This document shows positions 1,265 to 64,000 of a stretch of DNA of 64,000 nucleotides, piece by piece. A program made the position numbers and the translations under genes. This DNA is from a virus. The stretch lies in the UHGV virus genome UHGV-0038498; one strand, 5' to 3'. The first letter of the stretch is position 1; every line of letters starts with the position of its first letter. The notes under the pieces are model-generated. The model was not told where the DNA came from. It saw only the letters and a program-made list of their open reading frames with translations, and did not search any database.

Positions 1265-3361
1265 ATGATGGAACTCATTACAGAATTATTTGACGAAGAT
1301 ACTACTCTTCCGATTACAAACTTAAATCCAAAGAAGAAAATACCGCAAATTTTTTCAGTTCATGTTGATGACGCAATTGAACAACCAGGATTTCGTTTAT
1401 GTACCTATACATCTGGAGGTGATACTAATCGCGATTTAAAGATGGGCGATAAAATGATGCATATTGTTCCTTTTACATTAACTGCTAAAGGTTCAATTGC
1501 TAAATTAAAAGGTCTCGGTCCAAGCCCAATTAATTATATCAATTCAGTTTTTACTGTTGCGATGCAGACGATGCGTCAGTATAAAATTGATGCATGTATG
1601 CTCCGTATTCTTAAGTCTAAAACTGCTGGTCAAGCTCGTCAAATTCAACTTATTGCTGATAGACTTATCCGTAGTCGCTCAGGTGGCAGATACGTCCTTC
1701 TTAAGGAACTCTGGGATTACGATAAAAAGTATGCATATATTCTTATACATCGCAAAAATGTATCATTAGAAGACATTCCAGGAGTTCCTGAAATTAGTAC
1801 CGAGCTCTTTACTAAAGTTGAATCGAAGGTCGGTGATGTTTATATCAATAAAGATACTGGAGCTCAAGTAACTAAAAATGAGGCAATTGCAGCATCTATT
1901 GCGCAAGAAAACGATAAACGTTCTGACCAAGCTGTAATCGTTAAAGTTAAAATTTCCCGTAGAGCAATTGCACAAAGTCAGTCATTGGAATCTTCTAGAT
2001 TTGAAAGTGAATTATTCCAGAAGTATGAATCTACTGCAGCTAATTTCAATAAACCTGCTACCGCTCCTTTAATTCCCGAAGCGGAAGAAATGAAACTTGG
2101 AATTAATTCACTAGCTTCTAAAACTAAGGCAGCAAAAATCATTGCCGAAGGAACTGCAGATGAACTTCACTATGATTATAAATTCTTTTCAAAAAGTGAG
2201 GTTAATGAAGTTTCTGAAAAAATTAAAGATGTAATTCTTAATGCGATTAAAAATGAACCAACTACTTCAATAAAATGTTTAGAGAAATACGCAGCAGCTA
2301 TTAATAAATTCTTTGAAGAATACAAAGATACTTGGCTTGATAAACATAATAAAACCCGTAAAGGACAGCCAGATGAAGTTTGGGAAGAAATAACTAAAAA
2401 TTCCTGGAACGCAGCAAAAACTAAATTCCTCAAACGAATGATTTATAGCTTTTCTGGAATTGGTGCAGGTCCAATGATTGATATTACTATTGCCCGTGAT
2501 GGTTCGAAATATACTCCATCACAAAAGCGCGGCATTAGAGAGTATTGTGGTTCAGGATATACTGACATCAATAATCTTCTTTTAGGACGCTACAATCCAG
2601 AACGATATGATGTAATGAGTGAAAAAGAAATTGAATCTGCTATAAATAACTTAGATTCAGCTTTTGAAAATGGTGACCGTATACCGGAAGGCATTACAGT
2701 TTATCGTGCTCAAAGTATGACTGCTCCTATATACGAAGCATTAGTTAAAAATAAAGTGTTCTATTTCAGAAATTTTGTATCTACTTCTTTAACTCCTATC
2801 ATTTTTGGACGTTTTGGAATTACACATGCTGGTATTGGTCTTTTAGAACCAGAAGCTCGTAATGAATTAACAGTTGATAAAAATGAAGAAGGAATAACTA
2901 TTAATCCAAACGAAATAAGAGCGTATAAAGAAAATCCTGAATACGTTAAAGTTCAAATAGGATGGGCAATTGATGGAGCTCATAAAGTTAATGTTGTATA
3001 TCCAGGAAGTCTCGGAATAGCAACCGAAGCTGAAGTTATTCTACCACGCGGATTGATGGTCAAAGTTAATAAAATAACTGATGCTTCTAATAATGACGGA
3101 ACAACATCTAATAATACAAAACTCATTCAAGCTGAAGTTATGACTACGGAAGAACTCACCGAATCAGTAATTTATGACGGTGACCGTCTAATGGAAACCG
3201 GCGAAGTAGTTGCAATGACAGGTGATATTGAAATAGAAGACAGAGTTGACTTTGCATCATTTGTTTCATCAAATGTTAAACAAAAAGTAGAATCATCTCT
3301 TGGAATTATTGCGTCTTGCATAGATATTACAAACATGCCTTACAAGTTCGTTCAAGGATAA
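1265..3361 (+). CDS. alt: Alt ADP-ribosyltransferase, packaged head protein (698 aa)
   Basis: N-terminus MELITELFDE (capsid-targeting/prohead-protease type leader); C-terminal ART signatures FYFRNFVSTS (STS motif) and EAEVILPRG (catalytic Glu region); late promoter TATAAATA at 1237-1244. Confidence 0.9.
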   Translation: MMELITELFDEDTTLPITNLNPKKKIPQIFSVHVDDAIEQPGFRLCTYTSGGDTNRDLKMGDKMMHIVPFTLTAKGSIAKLKGLGPSPINYINSVFTVAMQTMRQYKIDACMLRILKSKTAGQARQIQLIADRLIRSRSGGRYVLLKELWDYDKKYAYILIHRKNVSLEDIPGVPEISTELFTKVESKVGDVYINKDTGAQVTKNEAIAASIAQENDKRSDQAVIVKVKISRRAIAQSQSLESSRFESELFQKYESTAANFNKPATAPLIPEAEEMKLGINSLASKTKAAKIIAEGTADELHYDYKFFSKSEVNEVSEKIKDVILNAIKNEPTTSIKCLEKYAAAINKFFEEYKDTWLDKHNKTRKGQPDEVWEEITKNSWNAAKTKFLKRMIYSFSGIGAGPMIDITIARDGSKYTPSQKRGIREYCGSGYTDINNLLLGRYNPERYDVMSEKEIESAINNLDSAFENGDRIPEGITVYRAQSMTAPIYEALVKNKVFYFRNFVSTSLTPIIFGRFGITHAGIGLLEPEARNELTVDKNEEGITINPNEIRAYKENPEYVKVQIGWAIDGAHKVNVVYPGSLGIATEAEVILPRGLMVKVNKITDASNNDGTTSNNTKLIQAEVMTTEELTESVIYDGDRLMETGEVVAMTGDIEIEDRVDFASFVSSNVKQKVESSLGIIASCIDITNMPYKFVQG

Positions 3362-3364
3362 ATC

Positions 3365-5422
3365 ATGGAACTTATTACAGAATTATTTGACGGCGCTTCG
3401 GCGCCGGTTGTTAACTTAAATCCTAAGCATAAAATACCTCAAATTTTTGCTATTCAAGCCGGCGAAGAAAGTGTGCTTCCTGGATTTAGATTTTGTACAT
3501 ACACCTCTGGCGGTGATACAAATAAAAACGTTAAGCCAGGCGATAAAATGATGCATATCGTAATGATAGGTGTTAATGAGAAACTATCATTAGTTAAACT
3601 TAAAAACTTGGGTGGAAATCCAATTGGTGTCATTAATGCCGTTTTTGATACTGCTCTTCAAACAATGAAACAGTATAAAATTGACGCATGCTTATTCCGC
3701 GTACTAAAAAGTAAAACAAATGGCGCAGCTCGTCAAATGCAAGTTATTGCTGACCGTTTAGTACGTACTAAAGGAGCAGGTCGATATGTTCTTTTAAAGG
3801 AAATCTGGGATTATGATAAAAAGTATGCATATATTATGGTTTACCGTAAAAATGCCAATTTAGAAGACATTCCAGGTGTACCTCCTATTTCAACTGAGTT
3901 ATTCACAAAAGTTGAATCAAAGGTTGGTGATGTGTATGTAGATGTTAAAACAGGTAATGCTGTTCCTAAAGCTGTTGCTGTTGCTGCTTCTATTGCCTTA
4001 GAAAATGATAAGCGCACGGATCAAGCTGTTATTCAGAAAACTAAAATTAGTCGTCGATTAGCAGCGCAAGCTCAATATTCTACTGTCGATGCTTCACTAC
4101 AGAGTGATAGCTTCGCTGCCAAGAAATATCAAGAGTTTGAATCTAAAGTTCCGGTACATAAAGCAGAAGGACCAATGAACTCTGGCGTTATTCAGATTGG
4201 TTCAAACTTCGGCAAAGGAGCTATCGGTGGTATGAGAAGTGCTTCTCGTTTTAAATCTAACGATTATGAACTAGAAAGCTTCCGAAATCATATTGCATTG
4301 GCCCATGCACGTTTACGTGATCCATCTATCAAGCTGCAGAGCGATATAACATATCAAGGTTCTCAAGAATATTTAAAGAATAAAGAATTTTTTGATTATA
4401 AAACCGATAAAATTTTGAGCGATCTCGCTGACATTAATATTTCTAATAGCTTTGATGTTATTAAGAAAATTATCAATGATTTAGTTAAAGGTTCTAAAGC
4501 TACGCCAGACGAAAAGGTAGCTATTATTCAATTTGTCATGAATGGCATTTATAAATTGATTAATGAATCTGCTGCCCAGGCGTATGAATACGCAAGCACC
4601 GAAGTAACTCCAAAAGGACTGACTCAGGCTGAGTCTGATGTAATTGAAGATTATTGTGCAGATTCATATGTTGAAATGAACTCGTTCCTCTTGGGTAAAC
4701 CAGATTCTACCCGTGAAGAATACATGGAACGAGCTATTAAACACATCGAGACAATGGATTCTGCCTTTGCCAAAGGTTCAGTTCTTCCTCCAGGAACTAC
4801 GCTTTATCGTGGACAAGAAGTTACTTTTAAAACTTTACGCCATAATATTGAAAATAAAATGTTCTATTTCAAGAACTTCGTATCAACATCGCTTAAACCA
4901 AATATCTTCGGTGAGCATGGTAAAAACTATATGGCTCTAGATGATTCCGGCGCAGTATTTTCTGGTGAAGGAGAAGGTTCTGTTGATGCTGAAGATTTAA
5001 TGCATATGGGTAGTCATTCTGCTTATGCGAATGAAGATGCTGAAACTAGCGTAGGTATGGTAATTAAAGGGGCTGAGCGAATCAAAGTTATCGTTCCAGG
5101 TCATTTATCAGGATTTCCATCAGAAGCTGAAGTTATTCTACCGCGTGGAATTTTGTTGAAGATTAATAAAGTAAGCACGTACATGATGAAAGAAACTGCT
5201 TATAACAAGTATCTAATCGAAGGCACAATCGTTCCTCCTTCTGAACAATTAGAAGAATCGGTATATGATGGCGATCATCTAATGGAAACTGGTGAAGTTC
5301 GTCCAATGGCTGGGTTTAATCAATTCCTTGTAGAAGAATCAAAAGAAGAGGAAAACGAAGTTTCTCAAATCTTGGCTTCTTTGGTTAACATCAACGGAAT
5401 GTCTAAAAAGTTCAAGATGTAG
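3365..5422 (+). CDS. second Alt-family ADP-ribosyltransferase paralogue (685 aa)
   Basis: Same N-terminal leader MELITELFDG and conserved first ~230 aa; divergent middle; intact C-terminal FYFKNFVSTS and SEAEVILPRG motifs; start 4 nt after alt stop. Confidence 0.8.
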   Translation: MELITELFDGASAPVVNLNPKHKIPQIFAIQAGEESVLPGFRFCTYTSGGDTNKNVKPGDKMMHIVMIGVNEKLSLVKLKNLGGNPIGVINAVFDTALQTMKQYKIDACLFRVLKSKTNGAARQMQVIADRLVRTKGAGRYVLLKEIWDYDKKYAYIMVYRKNANLEDIPGVPPISTELFTKVESKVGDVYVDVKTGNAVPKAVAVAASIALENDKRTDQAVIQKTKISRRLAAQAQYSTVDASLQSDSFAAKKYQEFESKVPVHKAEGPMNSGVIQIGSNFGKGAIGGMRSASRFKSNDYELESFRNHIALAHARLRDPSIKLQSDITYQGSQEYLKNKEFFDYKTDKILSDLADINISNSFDVIKKIINDLVKGSKATPDEKVAIIQFVMNGIYKLINESAAQAYEYASTEVTPKGLTQAESDVIEDYCADSYVEMNSFLLGKPDSTREEYMERAIKHIETMDSAFAKGSVLPPGTTLYRGQEVTFKTLRHNIENKMFYFKNFVSTSLKPNIFGEHGKNYMALDDSGAVFSGEGEGSVDAEDLMHMGSHSAYANEDAETSVGMVIKGAERIKVIVPGHLSGFPSEAEVILPRGILLKINKVSTYMMKETAYNKYLIEGTIVPPSEQLEESVYDGDHLMETGEVRPMAGFNQFLVEESKEEENEVSQILASLVNINGMSKKFKM

Positions 5423-5482
5423 TTTACAAGTCCCTCGTGTTGTGTTATAGTAGTTTTACTGACATAACATGAGGAACACAAA

Positions 5483-5773
5483 ATGAAATCTTCTTTACGC
5501 TTTTTAGGTCAAGAACTTGTAGTTGAAGGCGTTATTCCTGCTGATAACGCTTTTAATGAAGCAGTTTATGATGAATTTATCAAAATTTTTGGAACAGATA
5601 AAAAGTTCGGAATTTTTCCTTCTGAAAATTTTTCAAAGCCAGAGCAGACTGAAAGCATTTTCCAAGGTGTAGTAACAGGTAAATTTGAGTCAGAAGCTCC
5701 GGTAAAAATTGAAGTTTACATTGAAGACAGTTTAGTTGCTTCAGTTGCTGCTTTTATTTCATTCCGTAAATAA
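5483..5773 (+). CDS. hypothetical protein (96 aa)
   Basis: ORF with AGGA-type RBS, followed by bidirectional hairpin terminator at 5780-5797. Confidence 0.5.
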   Translation: MKSSLRFLGQELVVEGVIPADNAFNEAVYDEFIKIFGTDKKFGIFPSENFSKPEQTESIFQGVVTGKFESEAPVKIEVYIEDSLVASVAAFISFRK

Positions 5774-5779
5774 AAATAT

Positions 5780-5797
5780 GGGGACCTTTCGGTCCCC
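5780..5797. terminator. bidirectional terminator between convergent ORF (96 aa) and gene 54
   Basis: GGGGACC-TTTC-GGTCCCC flanked by A-run upstream and T-run downstream. Confidence 0.6.
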
Positions 5798-5801
5798 ATT
5801 G

Positions 5802-6767
5802 TTATATTGCTCCTAATATCTTACTTTGCGAGTTGACAATTCCCGTCATAGTATTAATGTTGGAAATGCTTCCAGCAGTTCCCCCTAATCTACTAAGTCG
5901 TGAAAGCGAATTAGATAATCCAGTAACACCTCCACTATTTCCGAGAACGCTTTGAATGCCATTTATAGCAGCAGATTCAAGCCACTCAAGCGCAGCTTGT
6001 CTATCAACCGACCCAGCCTGCATGACTCTATACGCAAAAGTAACATCAAATGTAGTTATTTGGTTATCTCCATCATATGATAACTCAGGAGCGCTCACTG
6101 ACACTGGAATGCATCCGGTGAACATCACCGCAGTATGAGGTAATCCATTACGAGCATGAAGATTAACCTGAATATCTGCCTCGACATCTTGTGGCAAAGC
6201 ACGCAGTCCAGTTACTGGGTCTTGAACAGCGTTAACCCAGTCTTGCATCGCACGATAGTTACAAGCTTCTGAATCCATTCTAAATGAAATAACCAAAGGG
6301 TCTAATTCTCTCCCAGTTATACGAATATTAGGAGAATTATAGTTCCAGTCAGTTTCATAGGATAATCTATTCTCTGGCATTTTTACAGAATATATCATCA
6401 ATCCAGATGAGTTATATGCCATGTTAAAGAAGTCAATTAAATATGTACCAACTGTAAATGAGCCCAATAAACTTTGAACTGTACGTTGACTCATGGCACC
6501 AATAAGATATTTACTAACCCCTGATTTTCTTATCAGTTTTTGTGTGCCAGCGGTAATTAGCGTGGTAATTCCCTGATTAATATCGCCTTGAGTCAATCCT
6601 AACCAATCTGAATTTAGACCCAAGTTATTATAAGAAAAGTTGCTAATTGAACTTATCAACGAAGAGCTTTTAGTTGATGGAGTTGTCGCAAAAACGCAGC
6701 TAAACATATTATTACGTTGGAAATCTGCGTTTATTGCTTGATTATTAAATTCCTCTAAAGAATACAT
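5802..6767 (-). CDS. 54: baseplate tail-tube initiator gp54
   Basis: 321-aa ORF, position and length match T4 gp54; start MYSLEEFNNQ. Confidence 0.85.
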   Translation of the reverse strand: MYSLEEFNNQAINADFQRNNMFSCVFATTPSTKSSSLISSISNFSYNNLGLNSDWLGLTQGDINQGITTLITAGTQKLIRKSGVSKYLIGAMSQRTVQSLLGSFTVGTYLIDFFNMAYNSSGLMIYSVKMPENRLSYETDWNYNSPNIRITGRELDPLVISFRMDSEACNYRAMQDWVNAVQDPVTGLRALPQDVEADIQVNLHARNGLPHTAVMFTGCIPVSVSAPELSYDGDNQITTFDVTFAYRVMQAGSVDRQAALEWLESAAINGIQSVLGNSGGVTGLSNSLSRLSRLGGTAGSISNINTMTGIVNSQSKILGAI

Positions 6768-7861
6768 TAAAAAGTCCCCGCATATAAAGAAGCACGGTTT
6801 AACGTGATAATTTCTCTCATAGTAATCTCAAGAGTAAATGTACTAGGGAGGTTTGGAGCAATAGCTAATCCATTAAAGTTACCATTAGGTGTTTTATCAA
6901 ATCTGATGCTCTGTATTTGGCATGGACCAAATATTTCCGTTTTTCCATCAAACTTAGACGTTGCACCAAAGTTTTTCACCATCCAAATTGTCGGGTTTGA
7001 AACTACTAGAACGTTAGTTAAACTCGATGTCATTTTCTCAAATAGTGTTTTATTTTTAGCTGCATCTTCCGGAGATAAAGGTTCAATTAACGTAGAACGA
7101 TACCAATCATCTAAATACCCCTTTATTTCAGCAGCATATTGAGATTTACCCGTTTCACCATAAGAAAAATAGTTAAAATATTGATAGATATTAATAATAG
7201 CCATTAAATCTTCTGTGGAACGTGGAGTCAAATCCCATGTAAACACTTTAGTTCTATTCTCAGCACCGCCATACATACTTCTGGCTGTCGTATAAATCTG
7301 TTCATTATTATCAGCCATTATACCCTGTGTTATACTTTCCAGTGCCCCAAATACTGCAGTTGAAGCAATATTACTTAACACACCAGTAGCAGTACCTCCG
7401 CCTCTGCTGATAAGACTTTCTTGAACATCATTAAATCTGTGTGATGATGTATCAACATCAGATTTAGATCTCGGTAAAAGAATGTTTGCGACAGGAGCTT
7501 TACTTATTGTTCCTGAATTGTTATTTGATATTAATCCATTTGATAGTTTTGATACTGTACTACTAATAGTGTTTCTAGCTGTACTTAAAATACTCGAAGA
7601 TGAAGAAGAGTAGTTAGATCTCATCGATCTAAGACTTCCAGAATCCCTAGATGACATATTGTATGCAGTAAATAATAATCCATTCTTATATAGATCTGTT
7701 ACCTGGAAGTCCCCTGTAGTGTCATTACCACTAGCACGCCCAGTTGGAAACTGGGCAGTGTATGTTTTAGTTGCTACTTCTGATTTAGTACTCTGTCCGG
7801 CTGAAATTTTCTCACCGGACTTTTTAATTAAATCAGCAGTTATTTCTTTAACAATTGCCAT
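6767..7861 (-). CDS. 48: baseplate tail-tube cap gp48
   Basis: 364-aa ORF, same length and position as T4 gp48. Confidence 0.85.
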   Translation of the reverse strand: MAIVKEITADLIKKSGEKISAGQSTKSEVATKTYTAQFPTGRASGNDTTGDFQVTDLYKNGLLFTAYNMSSRDSGSLRSMRSNYSSSSSSILSTARNTISSTVSKLSNGLISNNNSGTISKAPVANILLPRSKSDVDTSSHRFNDVQESLISRGGGTATGVLSNIASTAVFGALESITQGIMADNNEQIYTTARSMYGGAENRTKVFTWDLTPRSTEDLMAIINIYQYFNYFSYGETGKSQYAAEIKGYLDDWYRSTLIEPLSPEDAAKNKTLFEKMTSSLTNVLVVSNPTIWMVKNFGATSKFDGKTEIFGPCQIQSIRFDKTPNGNFNGLAIAPNLPSTFTLEITMREIITLNRASLYAGTF

Positions 7862-7869
7862 ATTATTCC

Positions 7870-9642
7870 TTAATTAACTCCAGTCGCATCAAATACACCA
7901 GGAGCAGTCGTGCTCGTTACGGGTGTCATATTATGAACGACAGTATTTTTCTTAATAACATTATTAGTATTATTGATCGAAGGAGATGCTTGTTGAACAG
8001 GAGCTTGCTGTGCTTTGTTCTTTTCTATTACCTGGACTTGTTTTGCTTCTGGCGATTTAGCAGAAGTTTCAGGTTTGGCATTAGGCTGATTTTTCTTGAG
8101 CTCTTGATAAGTAGCATCAATTTTAGAAAATCTAGCAGCAAGTTCTTTTTTAACTGCCGGTGAATTATTTAAATCCGGGTCATCCATTCGTTTTTTAAGG
8201 TCTTCATAGGCAGCTTCAACTGATTTAACCGTTGAGTCTTTACTCATATCAGCTGAATCAGCATATTTTTCAAAACGAATCATCGCGGCACGTGCTTCAT
8301 TAGCCTTCATTAAAGCATTTTTTCTTTCTTCAGGTGAAAGTTGCTTTAATTTTTCTTCTTCTGCTGCGCGTTCTTCATCGGTTGTCAATGCTTCTTTATT
8401 ATCAACACCACGAATCCAATTAGATGCACGGGTTTTCCAATTAGCAATTTTATCTAATCCTTTTGCTATCGGACCAAGGTCTCCGTTCATTCGTTTATCT
8501 TGATAATTTGCAACTTTTTCTTGATCTTCTTTATTGAGAGATGCTCCAGTAGAATTTTGGAAATTTTCTAGTGCTCTTCCTTCTACTTCATCAGCAGTAT
8601 CCTTCATGCCAGGAATGACTCGAAGAATTGCGGCAGATAATTTAGCCATTCCAAGCTGAATAAGTTCTCCTAAATTATAAAGAACCTTTCCAAGCCCTTC
8701 TACAATAGCTACCGTCAAACCGCCCCAATCTCCCGCTTCCCAGAATTTTTTAATTTCATCAATAGAACTAAAGATGCTCTGTAATAAAGGACCCCATGTT
8801 CCGGTTTCGCTAGAGAATTTAGTAAAGTCTGTACTAAACAAATCCCAAGCCTGCGAAAATTTATCTGACCAATATTTGAAATGAACCATCAGCAGATCTA
8901 TTCCAACAACAACAGCCAATATCATTGCAGTCATTTTAGCAGCTTCAATAGCAGCACTGACGGTATACTTAAATAGCATGCTTGATATTTTATCAGTAAT
9001 TGAAATAGATTTCTTAAATCCGAAATCAACAGTCTTTGTTAATTTATCTAAAGCTTGAGATAATTTTAAGTTAAATGCGTCTTTTTTCTGTTTTTCTTCT
9101 GGCGATTCTTGTTTAGGTTCAACTGGCTGAGGGGTAGGGAAAAAATCAGCATCAGGATCATTATTAACTGCTTCAGGAGCTGGTAATAAAGGACCCACGG
9201 ATTCAGCTGTATCGTCCTCAACAACTTTAACAGGAATAGCGCTTTCAACCGTAGCTAAACTAGTTCCTGTTTGTTGAATTCCGGCTGTCTGGATTTTTTG
9301 CTCGAGTAAACTCGTTAATTTATCTAATTTACTTCCGAGCGATTCACCGATTTCTTTATTAATATTATTGCCAATTTCGACAGTTTCAGCAATTAACTCA
9401 GAACCAGCAGTAGTATCACTCACTGCGCTTTCTACATTGTCAATTGCTCCAATTATTTCATTCGATTTTTCTTCGACAGTTTGAGCAATTAATTCAGAAG
9501 CAGCTTGAGCATCATCCAATTTCGTAGATATATCGTTAAGTCCAGATAAAGTGTTGGAAGCGGATTTAGCCGCTTCCTGTGTTGGTTTATTATCTGAAAT
9601 AACTTTTCTACGCATCGTTTGCATTTCTTGTGGCTTTTTCAT
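7870..9642 (-). CDS. 29: baseplate hub / tail length determinator gp29
   Basis: 590-aa ORF, same length and position as T4 gp29; extended low-complexity/coiled-coil composition. Confidence 0.85.
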   Translation of the reverse strand: MKKPQEMQTMRRKVISDNKPTQEAAKSASNTLSGLNDISTKLDDAQAASELIAQTVEEKSNEIIGAIDNVESAVSDTTAGSELIAETVEIGNNINKEIGESLGSKLDKLTSLLEQKIQTAGIQQTGTSLATVESAIPVKVVEDDTAESVGPLLPAPEAVNNDPDADFFPTPQPVEPKQESPEEKQKKDAFNLKLSQALDKLTKTVDFGFKKSISITDKISSMLFKYTVSAAIEAAKMTAMILAVVVGIDLLMVHFKYWSDKFSQAWDLFSTDFTKFSSETGTWGPLLQSIFSSIDEIKKFWEAGDWGGLTVAIVEGLGKVLYNLGELIQLGMAKLSAAILRVIPGMKDTADEVEGRALENFQNSTGASLNKEDQEKVANYQDKRMNGDLGPIAKGLDKIANWKTRASNWIRGVDNKEALTTDEERAAEEEKLKQLSPEERKNALMKANEARAAMIRFEKYADSADMSKDSTVKSVEAAYEDLKKRMDDPDLNNSPAVKKELAARFSKIDATYQELKKNQPNAKPETSAKSPEAKQVQVIEKNKAQQAPVQQASPSINNTNNVIKKNTVVHNMTPVTSTTAPGVFDATGVN

Positions 9643-55058: not shown

Positions 55059-55145
55059 GCGAGAATGGTCAAATTGGTAAAGGCACAGCACTTAAAATGC
55101 TGCGGAATGATTTCCTTGTGGGTTCGAGTCCCACTTCTCGCACCA
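55059..55145 (+). tRNA. tRNA-Leu (anticodon UAA), class II long variable arm, CCA encoded
   Basis: Manual fold: acceptor GCGAGAA/TTCTCGC, anticodon loop CTTAAAA, T-arm GGTTCGAGTCC. Confidence 0.8.
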
Positions 55146-55150
55146 AATTT

Positions 55151-55224
<74 letters not shown>

Positions 55225-55234
55225 ATTTAATTTA

Positions 55235-55308
55235 CTCCGTGTAGCTCAGTTTGGTAGAGCGCCTGATTTGGGATCAGGAGGTCCAAGGTTCAAATCCTTG
55301 TATGGAGA
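55235..55308 (+). tRNA. tRNA-Pro (anticodon UGG), no encoded CCA
   Basis: Acceptor CTCCGTG/TATGGAG with G-U pairs, anticodon stem CCTGA/TCAGG with loop TTTGGGA, T-arm GGTTCAAATCC. Confidence 0.75.
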
Positions 55309-55310
55309 CT

Positions 55311-55400
55311 GGAGGCGTGGCAGAGTGGTTTAATGCACCGGTCTTGAAAACCGGCAGTCGCTCCGGCGACTCATAGGTTCAAATCCTATCGCCTCCGCCA
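55311..55400 (+). tRNA. tRNA-Ser (anticodon UGA), class II
   Basis: Acceptor GGAGGCG/CGCCTCC, anticodon loop CTTGAAA, long variable arm, CCA encoded. Confidence 0.8.
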
Positions 55401-55405
55401 GTTTT

Positions 55406-55481
55406 GCTGATTTAGCTCAGTAGGTGGAGCAACTCACTTGTAATGAGAAGGTCGGCGGTTCGATTCCGTCAATCAGCACCA
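55406..55481 (+). tRNA. tRNA-Thr (anticodon UGU)
   Basis: Acceptor GCTGATT/AATCAGC, anticodon loop CTTGTAA, T-arm GGTTCGATTCC. Confidence 0.8.
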
Positions 55482-55482
55482 A

Positions 55483-55557
55483 GGCCCTGTAGCTGGAAGG
55501 TTCAAGCAAGCGACTCATAATCGCCAGATGGTGGTTCAATTCCACCCAGGGCCACCA
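55483..55557 (+). tRNA. tRNA with CAU anticodon (Ile2-type by analogy with T4, or Met)
   Basis: Acceptor GGCCCTG/CAGGGCC, anticodon loop CTCATAA. Confidence 0.7.
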
Positions 55558-55570
55558 AATTAAGAATTAA

Positions 55571-55657
55571 GGGGAGTTATCCCGTAGAGGTAGCGGTGTG
55601 GACTGTAAATCCATTGTCATTGCGACTCGGGTGGTTCGACTCCATCACTCCCCACCA
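55571..55657 (+). tRNA. tRNA-Tyr (anticodon GUA), class II
   Basis: Acceptor GGGGAGT/ACTCCCC, anticodon loop CTGTAAA (as in bacterial tRNA-Tyr), long variable arm, T-arm GGTTCGACTCC; D-arm irregular. Confidence 0.65.
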
Positions 55658-55661
55658 ATTT

Positions 55662-55736
55662 GGATGTGTAGCTCAATGGCAGAGCGATCGCCTGTTAAGC
55701 GATTGGTTATAGGTTCGAATCCTATCACGTCCGCCA
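55662..55736 (+). tRNA. tRNA-Asn (anticodon GUU)
   Basis: Acceptor GGATGTG/CACGTCC, anticodon stem ATCGC/GCGAT with loop CTGTTAA. Confidence 0.75.
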
Positions 55737-55850
55737 AATTTGTGACAACTGTCACATTAATATCTACTTGACGCGATTATAGGGGTTGAACTGATCACTC
55801 TTCTCTTAATTTCGTGTGAAGACATCTTGATTGTTGGAGTAGGTATTAAT

Positions 55851-55926
55851 GTGGCCGTAGTTCAGTTGGTAGAACTCGAGATTGTGATTCTCGTAGTCAT
55901 GGGTTCGACTCCCATCGGTCACCCCA
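55851..55926 (+). tRNA. tRNA-His (anticodon GUG)
   Basis: Acceptor GTGGCCG/CGGTCAC, anticodon stem CGAGA/TCTCG with loop TTGTGAT, discriminator C. Confidence 0.7.
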
Positions 55927-55930
55927 ATTA

Positions 55931-56006
55931 CGGGGCATAGCTCAGAAGGAAGAGCAAGGACCTTCTAAGTCCTAGGTCGTAGGTTCGATCCCTACTGCCT
56001 CGACCA
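55931..56006 (+). tRNA. tRNA-Arg (anticodon UCU)
   Basis: Acceptor CGGGGCA/TGCCTCG, anticodon stem AGGAC/GTCCT with loop CTTCTAA, T-arm GGTTCGATCC. Confidence 0.8.
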
Positions 56007-61912: not shown

Positions 61913-62230
61913 ATGAAAACGTATAAAGAATTTATTGCAGAATCTGCCGCAGGACAACGTGTAGAAGGCGGTTATATTTGGATTGAAGAAGTTGAGCCAC
62001 CTAGTCGTACTTCTACTGGTAAATGGAAAATTACTGTTGATGGTCCTGGCGGAAAACGCAGAACTTTAAAAGAAATTAATGGATATTATAGTGAAGCTCT
62101 TTCAGACGCGGGCACTTATATGATGCAAATTATGATTAAAAATCCAGAAAATCGTTTTGCAGCTAGAGTTTTCCGTCGCATTGGAAATAAACTTTACGAT
62201 GCATATTCTAAAAATTTTCCAAAAGCATAA
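61913..62230 (+). CDS. internal head protein (IPII position, 105 aa)
   Basis: N-terminal MKTYKEFIAE-S capsid-targeting leader. Confidence 0.65.
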   Translation: MKTYKEFIAESAAGQRVEGGYIWIEEVEPPSRTSTGKWKITVDGPGGKRRTLKEINGYYSEALSDAGTYMMQIMIKNPENRFAARVFRRIGNKLYDAYSKNFPKA

Positions 62231-62246
62231 AAATTAAAGGAAACAC

Positions 62247-62720
62247 ATGAAAACATATCAAGAATTTATCACTGAAGCAGCTATTAATTCTCAAATTATT
62301 GCTGAATCTTTTACTGATCTTTTGAAATTTAAAAAAGGTCAAAAAATCACTGCTGTATTGGATGATGGTACAGAAGTTGAGATGGATGTACAGGGATATA
62401 ATTATGCAGTAGATGGAAAACTGTATAATAAATCTCACGCTAAATTTGATTCATTTGACGACTTTGTTAATACAGTTGAAGATGAAAAAACTCGTAGATC
62501 CATTGCAACTGGCGACGCTAAGGTTCTTATGGCGCACGGTCATGAACGTATCCGCGCTAAGCAGAATAAAATGGGTGAAGATAATTTCGCATTAGTTGGT
62601 TATCAATCTGGTAAACAAACTTATGGTTATCAGCGTACTGCTACCATGTATAACAAAAATGGTAAAATCGCTTTCGTGAATAGCAAAGGTTCTATTCAGT
62701 ACGTCAAATCATTCAAATAA
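62247..62720 (+). CDS. internal head protein (IPIII position, 157 aa)
   Basis: N-terminal MKTYQEFITE-A...IIAE-S leader with two (I/L)xE sites. Confidence 0.65.
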   Translation: MKTYQEFITEAAINSQIIAESFTDLLKFKKGQKITAVLDDGTEVEMDVQGYNYAVDGKLYNKSHAKFDSFDDFVNTVEDEKTRRSIATGDAKVLMAHGHERIRAKQNKMGEDNFALVGYQSGKQTYGYQRTATMYNKNGKIAFVNSKGSIQYVKSFK

Positions 62721-62873
62721 GCAAATAAGAAATATGGGAACAAGCTGGACCTCATGATTCTATGAGGGATTCCCGCCAACCTGTAATAAGGTCGAGCCTG
62801 AGCGCGGTAATGGGTAAATACAGAAATGGACAATTCATGCGCCATGGAATGGCCCAAATTTAGAGAAAATAAA

Positions 62874-63413
62874 ATGAGAACATTTTTAACTGGTCCTTAT
62901 CTATCCCTGATGAATGCTTTTACACACCATTCTGATGCTAGAGTAGAAGAAATTTGTAAAAATGATTATATCCCACCATTTGAAGACTTACTTAAGCAGT
63001 ATTGCACACTTCGACTAGATGGTGGACGTCAATCTGGTAAATCAACTGCTGTGACTAACTTTGCTGCTAATTGGCTGTATGACGGTGGAACAGTTATTGT
63101 TCTTTCTAATACTTCAGCTTACGCTAAAATTTCTGCGGGCCACATTAAAAAAGAATTTTCTCGTTATTCTAGCGATGATATTCGATTCCGCTTATTTACT
63201 GATTCTGTCCGTAGTTTTATCGGTAATAAAGGAAGCAAGTTCAGAGGTTTATCGCTTTCGCGAATTTTGTATATAATTGATGAGCCTGTTAAATCTCCTG
63301 ATATGGATAAAATTTACGATATTCATATTGAAACTGTACATTACTGTTGCAATAGCAAGTGTTGCATTGGTGGTATTACTCGTCCACAGTTTTTCGTAAT
63401 TGGAATGCAATGA
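62874..63413 (+). CDS. hypothetical P-loop protein (179 aa)
   Basis: Walker A-like GGRQSGKST; start moved to ATG with GAGAAAA RBS; C-terminal Cys cluster CCNSKCC. Confidence 0.45.
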   Translation: MRTFLTGPYLSLMNAFTHHSDARVEEICKNDYIPPFEDLLKQYCTLRLDGGRQSGKSTAVTNFAANWLYDGGTVIVLSNTSAYAKISAGHIKKEFSRYSSDDIRFRLFTDSVRSFIGNKGSKFRGLSLSRILYIIDEPVKSPDMDKIYDIHIETVHYCCNSKCCIGGITRPQFFVIGMQ

Positions 63414-63739
63414 TGACAGACACACAGCTTTTCGAATATCTTTATTTTTCGCCAAAAACTATTAAAAATAAATTGGTGAATCATTTTGAAATTTTGGCAA
63501 ATAACAACGTCTTGAGCGAATTTTATCCTAAGCAATACAAATTACAAAAAGGTGTATTCAAAGGATGCAGAGTTTTGTGTACTGCTCCTAATGCAAGATT
63601 AATGAATAAAATTCCATATTTTACCATGGAATTTATTGATGGACCTTTTAAAGGACTAATCACCCAAAGTTTAATGGCATATGATTCTGAGCCATTTTTA
63701 ATTGAAGAACAGTCTTGGATAAATTTATTTTCTAATTGA
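63410..63739 (+). CDS. hypothetical protein (109 aa)
   Basis: ORF beginning ATGATG overlapping upstream stop. Confidence 0.45.
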   Translation: MMTDTQLFEYLYFSPKTIKNKLVNHFEILANNNVLSEFYPKQYKLQKGVFKGCRVLCTAPNARLMNKIPYFTMEFIDGPFKGLITQSLMAYDSEPFLIEEQSWINLFSN

Positions 63740-63745
63740 GGTTAT

Positions 63746-64000
63746 ATGAAAGCATATCAAATTCTTGAAGGCACACATAAAGGTACTATTTATTTTGAAG
63801 ATGGTATTCAAGCACGAATTATTGTTTCTAAAACCTTTAAAGAGGATTCTTTTGTAGACCCAGAAATTTTCTACGGTTTGCACACCCGTGAAATTGAAAT
63901 TGAATCACAGCCTACAGTTAAAATTGAAGGTGGTCAACACCTGAACGTTAACGTTCTGCGTCGTGAAACTCTGGAAGATGCAGTTAAGCATCCGGAAAAA
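63746..64000 (+). CDS. autonomous glycyl-radical cofactor (GrcA/YfiD-like; T4 Y06I-type), 3'-truncated at window edge
   Basis: Translation ...[28 protein letters not shown] is the conserved start of the glycyl-radical domain; codon usage in this stretch is host-like (CTG, CGT, CCG); GAGG RBS. Confidence 0.8.

What the first reader, a model, noticed from the sequence alone, without database searches (positions are those of the whole stretch)
63746..64000. GrcA/YfiD-like glycyl-radical cofactor gene with host-like codon usage
The partial ORF carries the conserved start of the glycyl-radical domain ([28 protein letters not shown]) and, unlike surrounding AT-rich genes, uses CTG/CGT/CCG codons. 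That is a signature of relatively recent acquisition from an enterobacterial host. T4 is known to carry such a gene (Y06I), thought to rescue oxygen-damaged pyruvate formate-lyase.
Basis: partly seen in the sequence, partly recalled or inferred. Interest (0 to 1): 0.45.

Follow-up and report, generated by a model that had tools for sequence, protein, structure and literature searches.

The report
T4 vs.6 spare-part gene, host-patched
This is the start of the already-known phage T4 gene vs.6 (Y06I), a small "spare part" protein that repairs the host's oxygen-damaged pyruvate formate-lyase; its tail end is a stretch of DNA copied almost letter-for-letter from the E. coli grcA gene.

Summary
An ORF starts at ATG 63746 and runs off the window at 64000 (85 of 120 codons). 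It is the ortholog of T4 vs.6/Y06I, a GrcA/YfiD-type autonomous glycyl-radical cofactor, in T4 synteny (vs.8, vs.7, vs.6). The RVSGY motif lies beyond the window but is present in all 13 relatives fetched.

The "recent acquisition" reading is only half right, because the gene is a mosaic:
- **5' part (63746-63923):** old phage lineage. All phage copies form one clade (100% bootstrap), with roughly 40-50% nucleotide identity to grcA.
- **3' part (63924-64000):** 77/77 nt identical to E. coli grcA. In the closest relative the identity runs 175 nt without a mismatch and stops 10 nt before the gene's end.

This tract is therefore an internal gene-conversion patch from Escherichia, not a whole-gene capture. 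It is the only chromosomal E. coli match in the 64-kb window. Klebsiella T4-like phages carry a K. pneumoniae-type patch with the same left boundary, so the exchange happened at least twice and is host-specific. Aeromonas, Karam-, Krisch-, Slopek-, Pseudoteven- and T5-like copies show no recent patch.

The gene and its biochemistry are already known. I found no description of the host-tracking patch in the searchable literature.

The parts
63746..64000 (+). 5' 255 nt (codons 1-85 of 120) of the vs.6/Y06I ortholog, a phage autonomous glycyl-radical cofactor of GrcA/YfiD type. It is truncated by the window end.
   Evidence: Translation. 2 nt differences from Shigella phage sb2 and 9 from T4 vs.6 over 255 nt. 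T4 RefSeq annotates vs.6 as 'autonomous glycyl radical cofactor GrcA'. Pfam Gly_radical and best NCBIfam hit TIGR04365. PDB 6owr (E. coli GrcA) E = 9e-42 for the full-length relative.
63746..63923 (+). Phage-lineage 5' segment (codons 1-59 plus 1 nt). AT-rich, homologous to the GrcA N-terminal half only at protein level.
   Evidence: GC3 0.19. Nucleotide identity to E. coli grcA is low, roughly 40-50% by eye from the alignments; blastn finds no match 5' of 63924. In a codon alignment of 5' halves all 13 phage copies are monophyletic (bootstrap 100%) and Tevenvirinae 99%. phmmer aligns phage residues 22-120 to GrcA 28-127.
63924..64000 (+). First 77 nt of the Escherichia-derived conversion tract. 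It encodes I60-K85, the start of the glycyl-radical domain. In relatives the tract continues about 98 nt beyond the window.
   Evidence: 77/77 nt identical to E. coli grcA. In sb2 a 175-nt perfect run against the E. coli strain 503025 allele ends 10 nt before the gene end. Synonymous codons are 56/56-57 identical to E. coli, against a host-host median of 0.55. Escherichia + Tequatrovirus + Mosigvirus clade has 100% bootstrap.
63738..63741 (+). GAGG ribosome-binding site, 4 nt upstream of the vs.6 ATG, overlapping the vs.7 stop codon (TGA 63737-63739).
   Evidence: Read directly from the sequence. The function is inferred.
63410..63739 (+). vs.7 homologue (109 aa), the syntenic upstream neighbour.
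   Evidence: ORF list. Same order vs.8-vs.7-vs.6 as in T4 and sb2. No Pfam family.
62826..63413 (+). vs.8 homologue (195 aa), a syntenic neighbour. Contains GGRQSGKST.
   Evidence: ORF list. Synteny with T4. No significant Pfam family.

Best explanation
The ORF is the phage's own copy of vs.6 (T4 Y06I). This is a roughly 14-kDa stand-alone glycyl-radical domain.

Proposed function:
1. The host radical-SAM activase PflA puts a radical on the Gly of RVSG*Y. This was shown in vitro for T4 Y06I by Wagner et al. 2001, as cited in PMC8683613.
2. The activated protein docks onto pyruvate formate-lyase whose own C-terminal radical domain has been cut off by O2, and restores PFL activity.
3. During infection under micro-oxic or anoxic conditions this would keep acetyl-CoA and formate flowing. 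This step is inferred.
4. Formate is the reductant of the phage's anaerobic ribonucleotide reductase NrdD. The link between vs.6 and NrdD is also inferred.

Proposed evolution: the gene is a chimera. A long-resident phage gene (the 5' 178 nt and the last ~10 nt) has had its radical-domain coding segment (about 175 nt, from 63924 onward) overwritten by homologous recombination with the Escherichia chromosomal grcA. This happened after Escherichia split from Citrobacter and Salmonella. The same kind of overwrite occurred independently in Klebsiella T4-like phages, using the K. pneumoniae allele.
For: Identity and family:
- Translation and synteny match T4 vs.6.
- Pfam Gly_radical, best NCBIfam hit TIGR04365, and PDB 6owr at E = 9e-42.
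- RVSGY is present in all 13 phage homologues fetched.
- Biochemistry of Y06I is described in PMC8683613.

Mosaic structure:
- 77/77 nt identical to E. coli grcA in the window.
- T4 and sb2 match E. coli at 172/174 nt in the tract. Synonymous codons are 56/56-57 identical, against 0.76 for E. coli-Citrobacter and 0.57 for E. coli-Salmonella.
- sb2 shares a 175-nt perfect run with the E. coli 503025 allele.
- The last 3 codons are phage-type and shared with Slopekvirus, so the tract is an internal patch.
- Phylogenies conflict. In the tract, Escherichia + Tequatrovirus + Mosigvirus has 100% support and phage monophyly 0%. In the 5' half, phage monophyly has 100% support.
- It is the only E. coli chromosomal megablast match in the whole 64 kb.

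More than one event:
- Jiaodavirus tract against K. pneumoniae grcA: 165/174 and 161/174 nt, with a 107-nt perfect run. Its GC3 is 0.59 against 0.24 in its 5' half.
- 106 phage records are 95-99% identical to K. pneumoniae grcA nt 202-369/374, and none match further 5'.
- Tequatrovirus against Mosigvirus: synonymous codons 41/52 identical in the 5' half but 57/58 in the tract, Fisher p = 0.0013.
- A TCA/TCC polymorphism is shared between phages and E. coli alleles.

Link to NrdD:
- In Aeromonas phage AsFcp_4, vs.6 sits in the cluster nrdD-nrdG-vs.6-nrdC-nrdH.
- Formate is the class III RNR reductant and a PFL product (PMC4390871).
Against: - The window stops 108 nt before the gene end, so the radical glycine is only inferred from relatives that are 96.5-99% identical.
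- The full-length relative scores 154.7 bits on TIGR04365, below the 170-bit equivalog cut-off, because the N-terminal half is diverged.
- No in vivo role of vs.6 in infection has been shown in anything I could read.
- The conversion is inferred from sequence only.
- The K. pneumoniae + Jiaodavirus clade has only 69% bootstrap on 174 nt.
- The shared Tequatrovirus/Mosigvirus tract could have spread phage-to-phage after a single host-to-phage event.
- Aeromonas, Karam-, Krisch-, Slopek-, Pseudoteven- and T5-like copies show no recent patch, so the process is not general.
- No promoter stands out locally: 5 sites found against 6.8 expected.
Confidence: 0.85

Rival explanations
1. Whole-gene recent capture. 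The entire ORF was picked up recently from an enterobacterial host. The 5' half then diverged fast.
For: Host-type codons and 100% identity to E. coli grcA at the 3' end. The N-terminal half is still recognisably GrcA-like at protein level.
Against: - Synonymous sites are saturated in the 5' 178 nt but untouched in the next 175 nt, and mutation cannot do that within one gene.
- The 5' half is shared and monophyletic among Straboviridae genera and T5-like phages.
- vs.6 is conserved in 6/6 T4-like genomes (PMC1524935).
- The last 3 codons are phage-type.
Confidence: 0.04
2. One ancestral conversion, then vertical or phage-to-phage spread. A single Escherichia-to-phage event occurred in an ancestor of Tequatrovirus and Mosigvirus. 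The Klebsiella-phage tract would be a diverged descendant of that event, or a coincidence.
For: The left boundary is the same (codon 60/61) in Tequatro-, Mosig- and Jiaodavirus. T-even phages recombine freely with each other (general knowledge).
Against: - The Jiaodavirus tract is closer to K. pneumoniae (0.93-0.95) than to E. coli (0.85-0.87). It carries the Klebsiella-type LLDAVE residues, has GC3 0.59, and shares a 107-nt perfect run with K. pneumoniae.
- The tract is significantly younger than the 5' half between Tequatrovirus and Mosigvirus, p = 0.0013.
- The shared boundary is expected anyway, because nucleotide homology between phage and host genes starts there.
Confidence: 0.08
3. Artefact. 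The host-identical stretch is an assembly chimera or host-DNA contamination in the phage genome.
For: Phage preparations do contain host DNA. The identity with the host is perfect.
Against: - The same junction is present in about 650 independent phage records at 90% identity or more, including the T4 reference and T2, from many countries and sequencing technologies.
- The reading frame is continuous and the flanks on both sides are phage DNA.
- Phage-specific substitutions occur inside the tract, for example T4 R72H and 6 changes in WFL6982.
Confidence: 0.01
4. Different function. The protein serves the phage's own glycyl-radical enzyme NrdD as a spare radical domain or as an NrdG substrate, rather than serving host PFL.
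For: vs.6 lies immediately downstream of nrdD-nrdG in Aeromonas phage AsFcp_4. PMC1524935 speculated about a role in nucleotide metabolism.
Against: - The radical-domain segment is identical to GrcA. It is much closer to the PflB C-terminus (94 bits, 1h16) than to any other solved glycyl-radical enzyme, and no NrdD chain appears in the hit list.
- T4 Y06I was reported to be activated by PFL activase and to complement cleaved PFL (PMC8683613).
- Overwriting by host grcA without loss of the gene argues that the domain does what GrcA does.
Confidence: 0.07

Closest known systems
Bacteriophage T4 vs.6 / Y06I (NP_049730.1)
   Same: Same gene. Same position (vs.8-vs.7-vs.6, between denV and regB), same 120-aa length in close relatives, and 246/255 nt identical over the part in the window. 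It has the same mosaic junction with E. coli grcA.
   Different: 9 nt differences, which change 3 residues in the window part (T47/A, S54/P, R73/H). The window copy is cut at codon 85.
E. coli GrcA (YfiD), autonomous glycyl radical cofactor (PDB 6owr; TIGR04365)
   Same: The C-terminal 60 residues are identical or nearly so, and 77/77 nt (window) to 175/175 nt (sb2) are identical at DNA level. Stand-alone radical domain with RVSGY. Spare part for O2-cleaved PFL (PMC8683613).
   Different: The N-terminal half is 7 residues shorter and only distantly similar. The protein falls below the TIGR04365 cut-off (154.7 against 170 bits). It is expressed from a phage early-region operon rather than the host's own grcA locus. 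The flanking DNA is unrelated.
Host-phage intragenic recombination in cyanophage psbA (Sullivan et al. 2006, PMC1484495)
   Same: An auxiliary metabolic gene resident in T4-like phages that exchanges internal segments with the host's own copy, giving compositional and phylogenetic mosaics.
   Different: Different gene, hosts and environment. Here the patch is short (about 175 nt), has a fixed left boundary, and shows perfect identity to extant host alleles in virulent enterobacterial phages. I did not read the paper in detail.
PflB C-terminal glycyl-radical domain (PDB 1h16 / 2pfl)
   Same: Same fold and motif. Phage residues 58-120 align to PflB 697-759 (94 bits).
   Different: PflB is a 759-aa enzyme. 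At DNA level the tested Klebsiella-phage vs.6 is only about 80% identical to pflB, against 93.6% to K. pneumoniae grcA. The window's tract found a single E. coli locus per genome, grcA. So grcA, not pflB, is the donor.

Membership tests
GrcA/YfiD autonomous glycyl radical cofactor (TIGR04365 / IPR011140) | Contains a Gly_radical domain (Pfam PF01228) above the gathering score | tested here: met
   Window fragment 29 bits against 22.2. Full-length sb2 ortholog 67.1 bits.
GrcA/YfiD autonomous glycyl radical cofactor (TIGR04365 / IPR011140) | Scores above the NCBIfam equivalog cut-off (170 bits) for TIGR04365 | tested here: not met
   It is the best family hit, but the full-length ortholog scores 154.7 bits and the window fragment 67.1. 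The shortfall comes from the diverged N-terminal half. E. coli GrcA scores 233.9.
GrcA/YfiD autonomous glycyl radical cofactor (TIGR04365 / IPR011140) | Small stand-alone protein (about 120-130 aa) with no catalytic barrel | tested here: inconclusive
   The window ORF is cut at codon 85. All close relatives are 120 aa with the stop overlapping the vs.5 start.
GrcA/YfiD autonomous glycyl radical cofactor (TIGR04365 / IPR011140) | RVSGY glycyl-radical motif near the C-terminus | tested here: inconclusive
   The motif lies about 30 nt beyond the window end. It is present in sb2, T4 and 11 other phage homologues.
GrcA/YfiD autonomous glycyl radical cofactor (TIGR04365 / IPR011140) | Activated by PFL activase and restores activity to O2-cleaved PFL | not testable with these tools
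   Reported for T4 Y06I by Wagner et al. 2001, as summarised in PMC8683613. The primary paper is not held in the library.
T4 vs.6 orthologous group (Straboviridae) | Synteny vs.8-vs.7-vs.6 downstream of e/denV/ip genes, and high nucleotide identity to T4 vs.6 | tested here: met
   Window gene order against T4 and sb2. 96.5% nt identity to T4 and 99.2% to sb2 over 255 nt.
Host-to-phage gene-conversion mosaic (as in cyanophage psbA) | Sharp breakpoint with conflicting phylogenies on either side, and synonymous-site identity to a specific host | tested here: met
   Bootstrap 100% for the Escherichia + phage clade in the tract, against 100% phage monophyly in the 5' half. No formal recombination program (GARD/RDP) was run.

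The most novel reading that the evidence does not exclude
The radical-domain segment of vs.6 may be a standing recombination interface between virulent T-even phages and the host chromosome. On this reading it is re-copied from whichever host the lineage has recently replicated in: the E. coli allele in Tequatrovirus and Mosigvirus, the K. pneumoniae allele in Jiaodavirus. The re-copying would be selected, because the spare part must fit the host's own PFL core and activase. The tract would then be a rare documented case of ongoing host-to-virulent-coliphage gene conversion, and a built-in record of recent host history. At least two independent host-specific events are well supported here. That the process is adaptive, and that it is undescribed, is not shown.
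Probability: 0.3. Interest if true: 0.6.

Novelty: already known. Interest (0 to 1): 0.38.

Why it matters
The gene itself adds nothing new. It is the T4 vs.6/Y06I spare-part protein, annotated as GrcA in RefSeq and characterised biochemically in 2001.

What is worth keeping is the anatomy. T4-type phages destroy host DNA and are thought to exchange little with the host chromosome. Yet this gene carries a patch of up to 175 nt that is perfectly identical to a living E. coli allele, and its Klebsiella-phage counterparts carry a K. pneumoniae patch.

This gives a concrete and experimentally tractable locus for three things:
- Measuring host-to-virulent-phage homologous recombination.
- Asking whether an auxiliary metabolic protein has to be matched to the host enzyme it repairs.
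- Testing the proposed link between PFL repair, formate supply and the phage's anaerobic ribonucleotide reductase.

Tried and rejected
Inside the window it is not significant: 0.31 against 0.24, with 27.5% of windows as high. Nucleotide identity and synonymous-codon identity were used instead.
- **Homology past the stop codon.** I looked for E. coli homology extending into the grcA terminator. There is none; the flanks are unrelated and the last 3 codons are phage-type.
- **pflB as donor.** Rejected. The tested Klebsiella-phage gene is about 80% identical to pflB against 93.6% to K. pneumoniae grcA, and the window's tract matches one locus per E. coli genome, grcA.
- **Promoter/terminator scan of 62200-64000.** Nothing above chance.
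- **Aeromonas phage against Aeromonas chromosome, as a third host-tracking case.** Negative: 114/174 nt, synonymous codons 13/41.
- **Karam-, Krisch-, Slopek-, Pseudoteven- and T5-like copies.** Synonymous identity to every host is at background level, so there is no recent patch.
- **K. pneumoniae grcA from the genome collection.** It was recovered from a chromosome mislabelled as a plasmid in PLSDB.
- **Literature.** Eight full-text searches found no description of the mosaic. Miller et al. 2003 (PMC150520) is not held. I did not attempt to retrieve Wagner et al. 2001 and know it only through citation. Prior description cannot be excluded.
- **Pfam scan of the neighbours.** vs.8, vs.7 and the first IP-like ORF gave nothing informative; the second IP-like ORF matches DUF7412 at 319 bits.

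Full report
**What is there**

The window is a T4-type (Tequatrovirus) phage genome read on the strand opposite to the T4 reference. It carries nudE, e (lysozyme), denV, two internal-protein-like ORFs, vs.8 and vs.7. The flagged ORF starts at ATG 63746. A GAGG precedes it at 63738-63741, overlapping the vs.7 stop. The ORF stays open to the last base of the window, giving 85 codons.

The closest public record is Shigella phage sb2, 98.7% identical over 701 nt. In sb2 the gene is 363 nt (120 aa) and ends ...[35 protein letters not shown], with its stop overlapping the next gene's ATG. T4's own copy is vs.6 (NP_049730.1), annotated "autonomous glycyl radical cofactor GrcA". It differs from the window at 9 of 255 nt.

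The glycyl-radical motif lies about 30 nt past the window end. It can only be inferred from relatives, all 13 of which have it.

**Family evidence**

- The fragment passes Pfam Gly_radical at 29 bits against 22.2, and the full ortholog scores 67 bits.
- The best NCBIfam model is TIGR04365 (GrcA). The full-length ortholog scores 154.7 bits, under the 170-bit equivalog cut-off, because the N-terminal half is diverged.
- Against solved structures the best hit is E. coli GrcA (6owr, E = 9e-42), aligned over phage residues 22-120. PflB's C-terminus comes next (1h16, residues 697-759).
- T4 Y06I and E. coli YfiD are described as the only two biochemically validated "spare part" proteins. They are activated by PFL activase and restore activity to O2-cleaved PFL (PMC8683613 citing Wagner et al. 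2001).

**The codon-usage signal is a DNA patch, not a whole-gene property**

The last 26 codons in the window use CTG 3/3, CGT 2/2 and CCG 1/1. CTG is 7% of Leu codons and CCG 14% of Pro codons in the window's long ORFs. GC3 alone is not significant within the window (0.31 against a mean of 0.24).

The decisive result is that 63924-64000 is 77/77 nt identical to E. coli grcA. It matches in all 5426 complete E. coli genomes, at 100% in 2970 of them, E = 4e-30. Nothing 5' of 63924 matches.

Aligning full-length phage genes with grcA shows a sharp junction at codon 60:
- Upstream, nucleotide identity is low, roughly 40-50% by eye.
- Downstream, T4 and sb2 match at 172/174 nt.

Synonymous codons in the tract are 56/56-57 identical. 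The same measure is 0.76 between E. coli and Citrobacter amalonaticus, 0.57 between E. coli and Salmonella, and 0.55 (median) among 81 host genes.

sb2 shares a 175-nt perfect run with the grcA allele of E. coli strain 503025. That run ends 10 nt before the gene end. The final three codons (GAG AGT CTG/CTA) are phage-type and shared with Slopekvirus. Homology does not continue past the stop. The host-derived DNA is therefore an internal patch flanked on both sides by phage sequence, which is the signature of gene conversion.

**Phylogenetic conflict**

| Segment | Grouping | NJ bootstrap |
|---|---|---|
| 174-nt tract | Escherichia + Tequatrovirus + Mosigvirus | 100% |
| 174-nt tract | All phages monophyletic | 0% |
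| 5' half (codon alignment) | All 13 phage copies, T5-like included | 100% |
| 5' half (codon alignment) | Tevenvirinae | 99% |

vs.6 is also one of the few ORFs of unknown function conserved in all six T4-like genomes compared in PMC1524935. Homologues turn up in 1516 phage records. The gene is old in phages, and only the patch is young. Transfer went from host to phage. The tract has the host's codon style, and E. coli's 3' half sits normally among other Enterobacteriaceae.

**Control**

Megablast of the whole 64-kb window against 5426 E. coli genomes finds a chromosomal match only at 63924-64000. The one other hit is an 85% match of the phage tRNA cluster to plasmid-borne tRNA genes.

**More than one event**

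Klebsiella T4-like phages (Jiaodavirus) have the same architecture with a different donor:
- Their 3' half has GC3 0.59, against 0.24 for the 5' half.
- It encodes the Klebsiella-type LLDAVE instead of the E. coli-type LEDAVK.
- It matches K. pneumoniae grcA at 165/174 and 161/174 nt, with a 107-nt perfect run. The match to E. coli is only 0.85-0.87.
- 106 phage records are 95-99% identical to K. pneumoniae grcA from nt 202 to 369/374. None match further 5'.

Within the E. coli phages:
- Tequatrovirus and Mosigvirus differ at 11 of 52 synonymous codons in the 5' half but at 1 of 58 in the tract (Fisher p = 0.0013).
- A TCA/TCC polymorphism in the Ser codon of RVSGY is shared between phages of both genera and E. 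coli alleles.

Both points suggest repeated exchange, either host-to-phage or phage-to-phage.

By contrast, copies from Karamvirus, Krischvirus, Slopekvirus, Pseudotevenvirus, T5-like phages and an Aeromonas Angelvirus are at background synonymous identity to every host tested. The process is lineage-restricted.

**How it most likely works**

Shown in the literature for the T4 ortholog: the protein receives a glycyl radical from host PflA and replaces the lost radical domain of O2-cleaved PFL.

Inferred:
- During infection of a facultative anaerobe this keeps PFL producing acetyl-CoA and formate.
- Formate is the reductant of class III ribonucleotide reductases and a product of PFL (PMC4390871).
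- T4-type phages encode NrdD and NrdG. In Aeromonas phage AsFcp_4, vs.6 sits in nrdA-nrdB-x-nrdD-nrdG-vs.6-nrdC-nrdH, overlapping the nrdG stop. This fits a role in sustaining anaerobic dNTP synthesis.
- The conversion itself is most simply explained by the phage recombination machinery using host DNA fragments. The only place in the genome with enough phage-host homology is the highly constrained radical-domain segment. The left boundary coincides with the point where that homology begins.
- Whether the patching is selected (matching the spare part to the host's PFL and activase) or is a neutral, self-reinforcing by-product of homology is open.

**Rivals**

- Whole-gene recent capture is contradicted by the saturated 5' half, the phage monophyly there, and the phage-type last codons.
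- Assembly artefact is excluded. The junction occurs in about 650 independent records, including T4 and T2, and there are phage-specific substitutions inside the tract.
- A single ancestral event cannot explain the K. pneumoniae-type tract.
- A direct role on NrdD rather than PFL is not excluded by synteny, but it fits the sequence data and the reported biochemistry less well.

**Comparison and novelty**

The feature is a member of an already known and annotated gene family and is nearly identical to the characterised T4 protein. The evolutionary pattern resembles the host-phage intragenic recombination described for psbA in T4-like cyanophages (PMC1484495).

I found no paper in the searchable library describing the grcA/vs.6 patch. 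Miller et al. 2003 is not held. I did not retrieve Wagner et al. 2001. Prior description cannot be excluded.

**Verdict**

This is a known gene. The "recent acquisition" claim is right only for a conversion patch of about 175 nt. Interest is moderate-low for the gene itself. It is raised somewhat by the clean, host-specific and apparently recurrent host-to-virulent-phage gene conversion.

Noticed in passing
window 55059-56006 (+): A cluster of 10 tRNA genes (Leu, Gly, Pro, Ser, Thr, Met/Ile-CAT, Tyr, Asn, His, Arg). The Tyr-Asn part (~55565-55722) is 85% identical to a tRNA-Tyr/Thr/Asn cluster on 259 E. coli plasmid records, for example the 110-kb NZ_CP022085.2. This is the window's only other megablast match to E. 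coli genomes.
   Followed up: partly
window 61913-62230 and 62247-62720 (+): Two adjacent ORFs (105 and 157 aa) both start MKTY(K/Q)EFI..., like the leader of T4 internal proteins. The second matches Pfam DUF7412 at 319 bits. The gene order e-denV-IP-IP-vs.8 differs from T4 (e-ipIII-ipII-denV-vs.8), and sb2 lacks the 105-aa ORF.
   Followed up: partly
window 62826-63413 (+): The vs.8 homologue (195 aa) contains a Walker-A-like GGRQSGKST motif but has no significant Pfam family. Public records label it inconsistently: 'large terminase subunit', 'endoribonuclease RegB domain', or hypothetical.
   Followed up: no
L100 (Aeromonas phage AsFcp_4, MH791407.1) 2556-8001: vs.6 is embedded in the ribonucleotide-reductase cluster nrdA-nrdB-x-nrdD-nrdG-vs.6-nrdC-nrdH on one strand and overlaps the nrdG stop. 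This suggests a functional link between the spare-part protein and anaerobic dNTP synthesis. Its radical-domain segment is not host-like: 114/174 nt to A. caviae grcA.
   Followed up: partly
L084, L094 (Klebsiella Jiaodavirus vs.6, 401-763) against L095 (K. pneumoniae grcA, 200-583): The two Jiaodavirus genes differ more in the host-derived tract (0.948 identity) than in the phage-type 5' half (0.977). The same holds for two Mosigvirus genes (0.960 against 0.983). This hints at separate or ongoing exchanges within genera, but the counts are small.
   Followed up: partly
PLSDB records CP125156.1 (5.37 Mb), NZ_AP026896.1 (4.9 Mb), NZ_OL790696.1 and others: Whole bacterial chromosomes are filed as 'plasmids' in the plasmid collection. 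This was useful here as a source of K. pneumoniae and Aeromonas grcA, but it is a trap for plasmid-based inferences.
   Followed up: no
L096 (K. aerogenes NCTC10006, LR134122.1) 200-600: The grcA reading frame in this record breaks right after ...HPEK and is annotated as a shortened CDS. This is probably a sequencing indel rather than a real pseudogene.
   Followed up: no
one search hit H155 (Salmonella phage PSE-D1, ON550260.1); one search hits on Yersinia phages (fPS-90, PYps32T): Some phages carry a tract that does not match their stated host. A 'Salmonella' phage has the K. pneumoniae-type tract (97.1%). Yersinia-isolated Tequatroviruses are 98% identical to the window over 63300-64000, which covers only the first 77 nt of the E. 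coli-type tract. The tract may reflect an earlier host rather than the isolation host.
   Followed up: no
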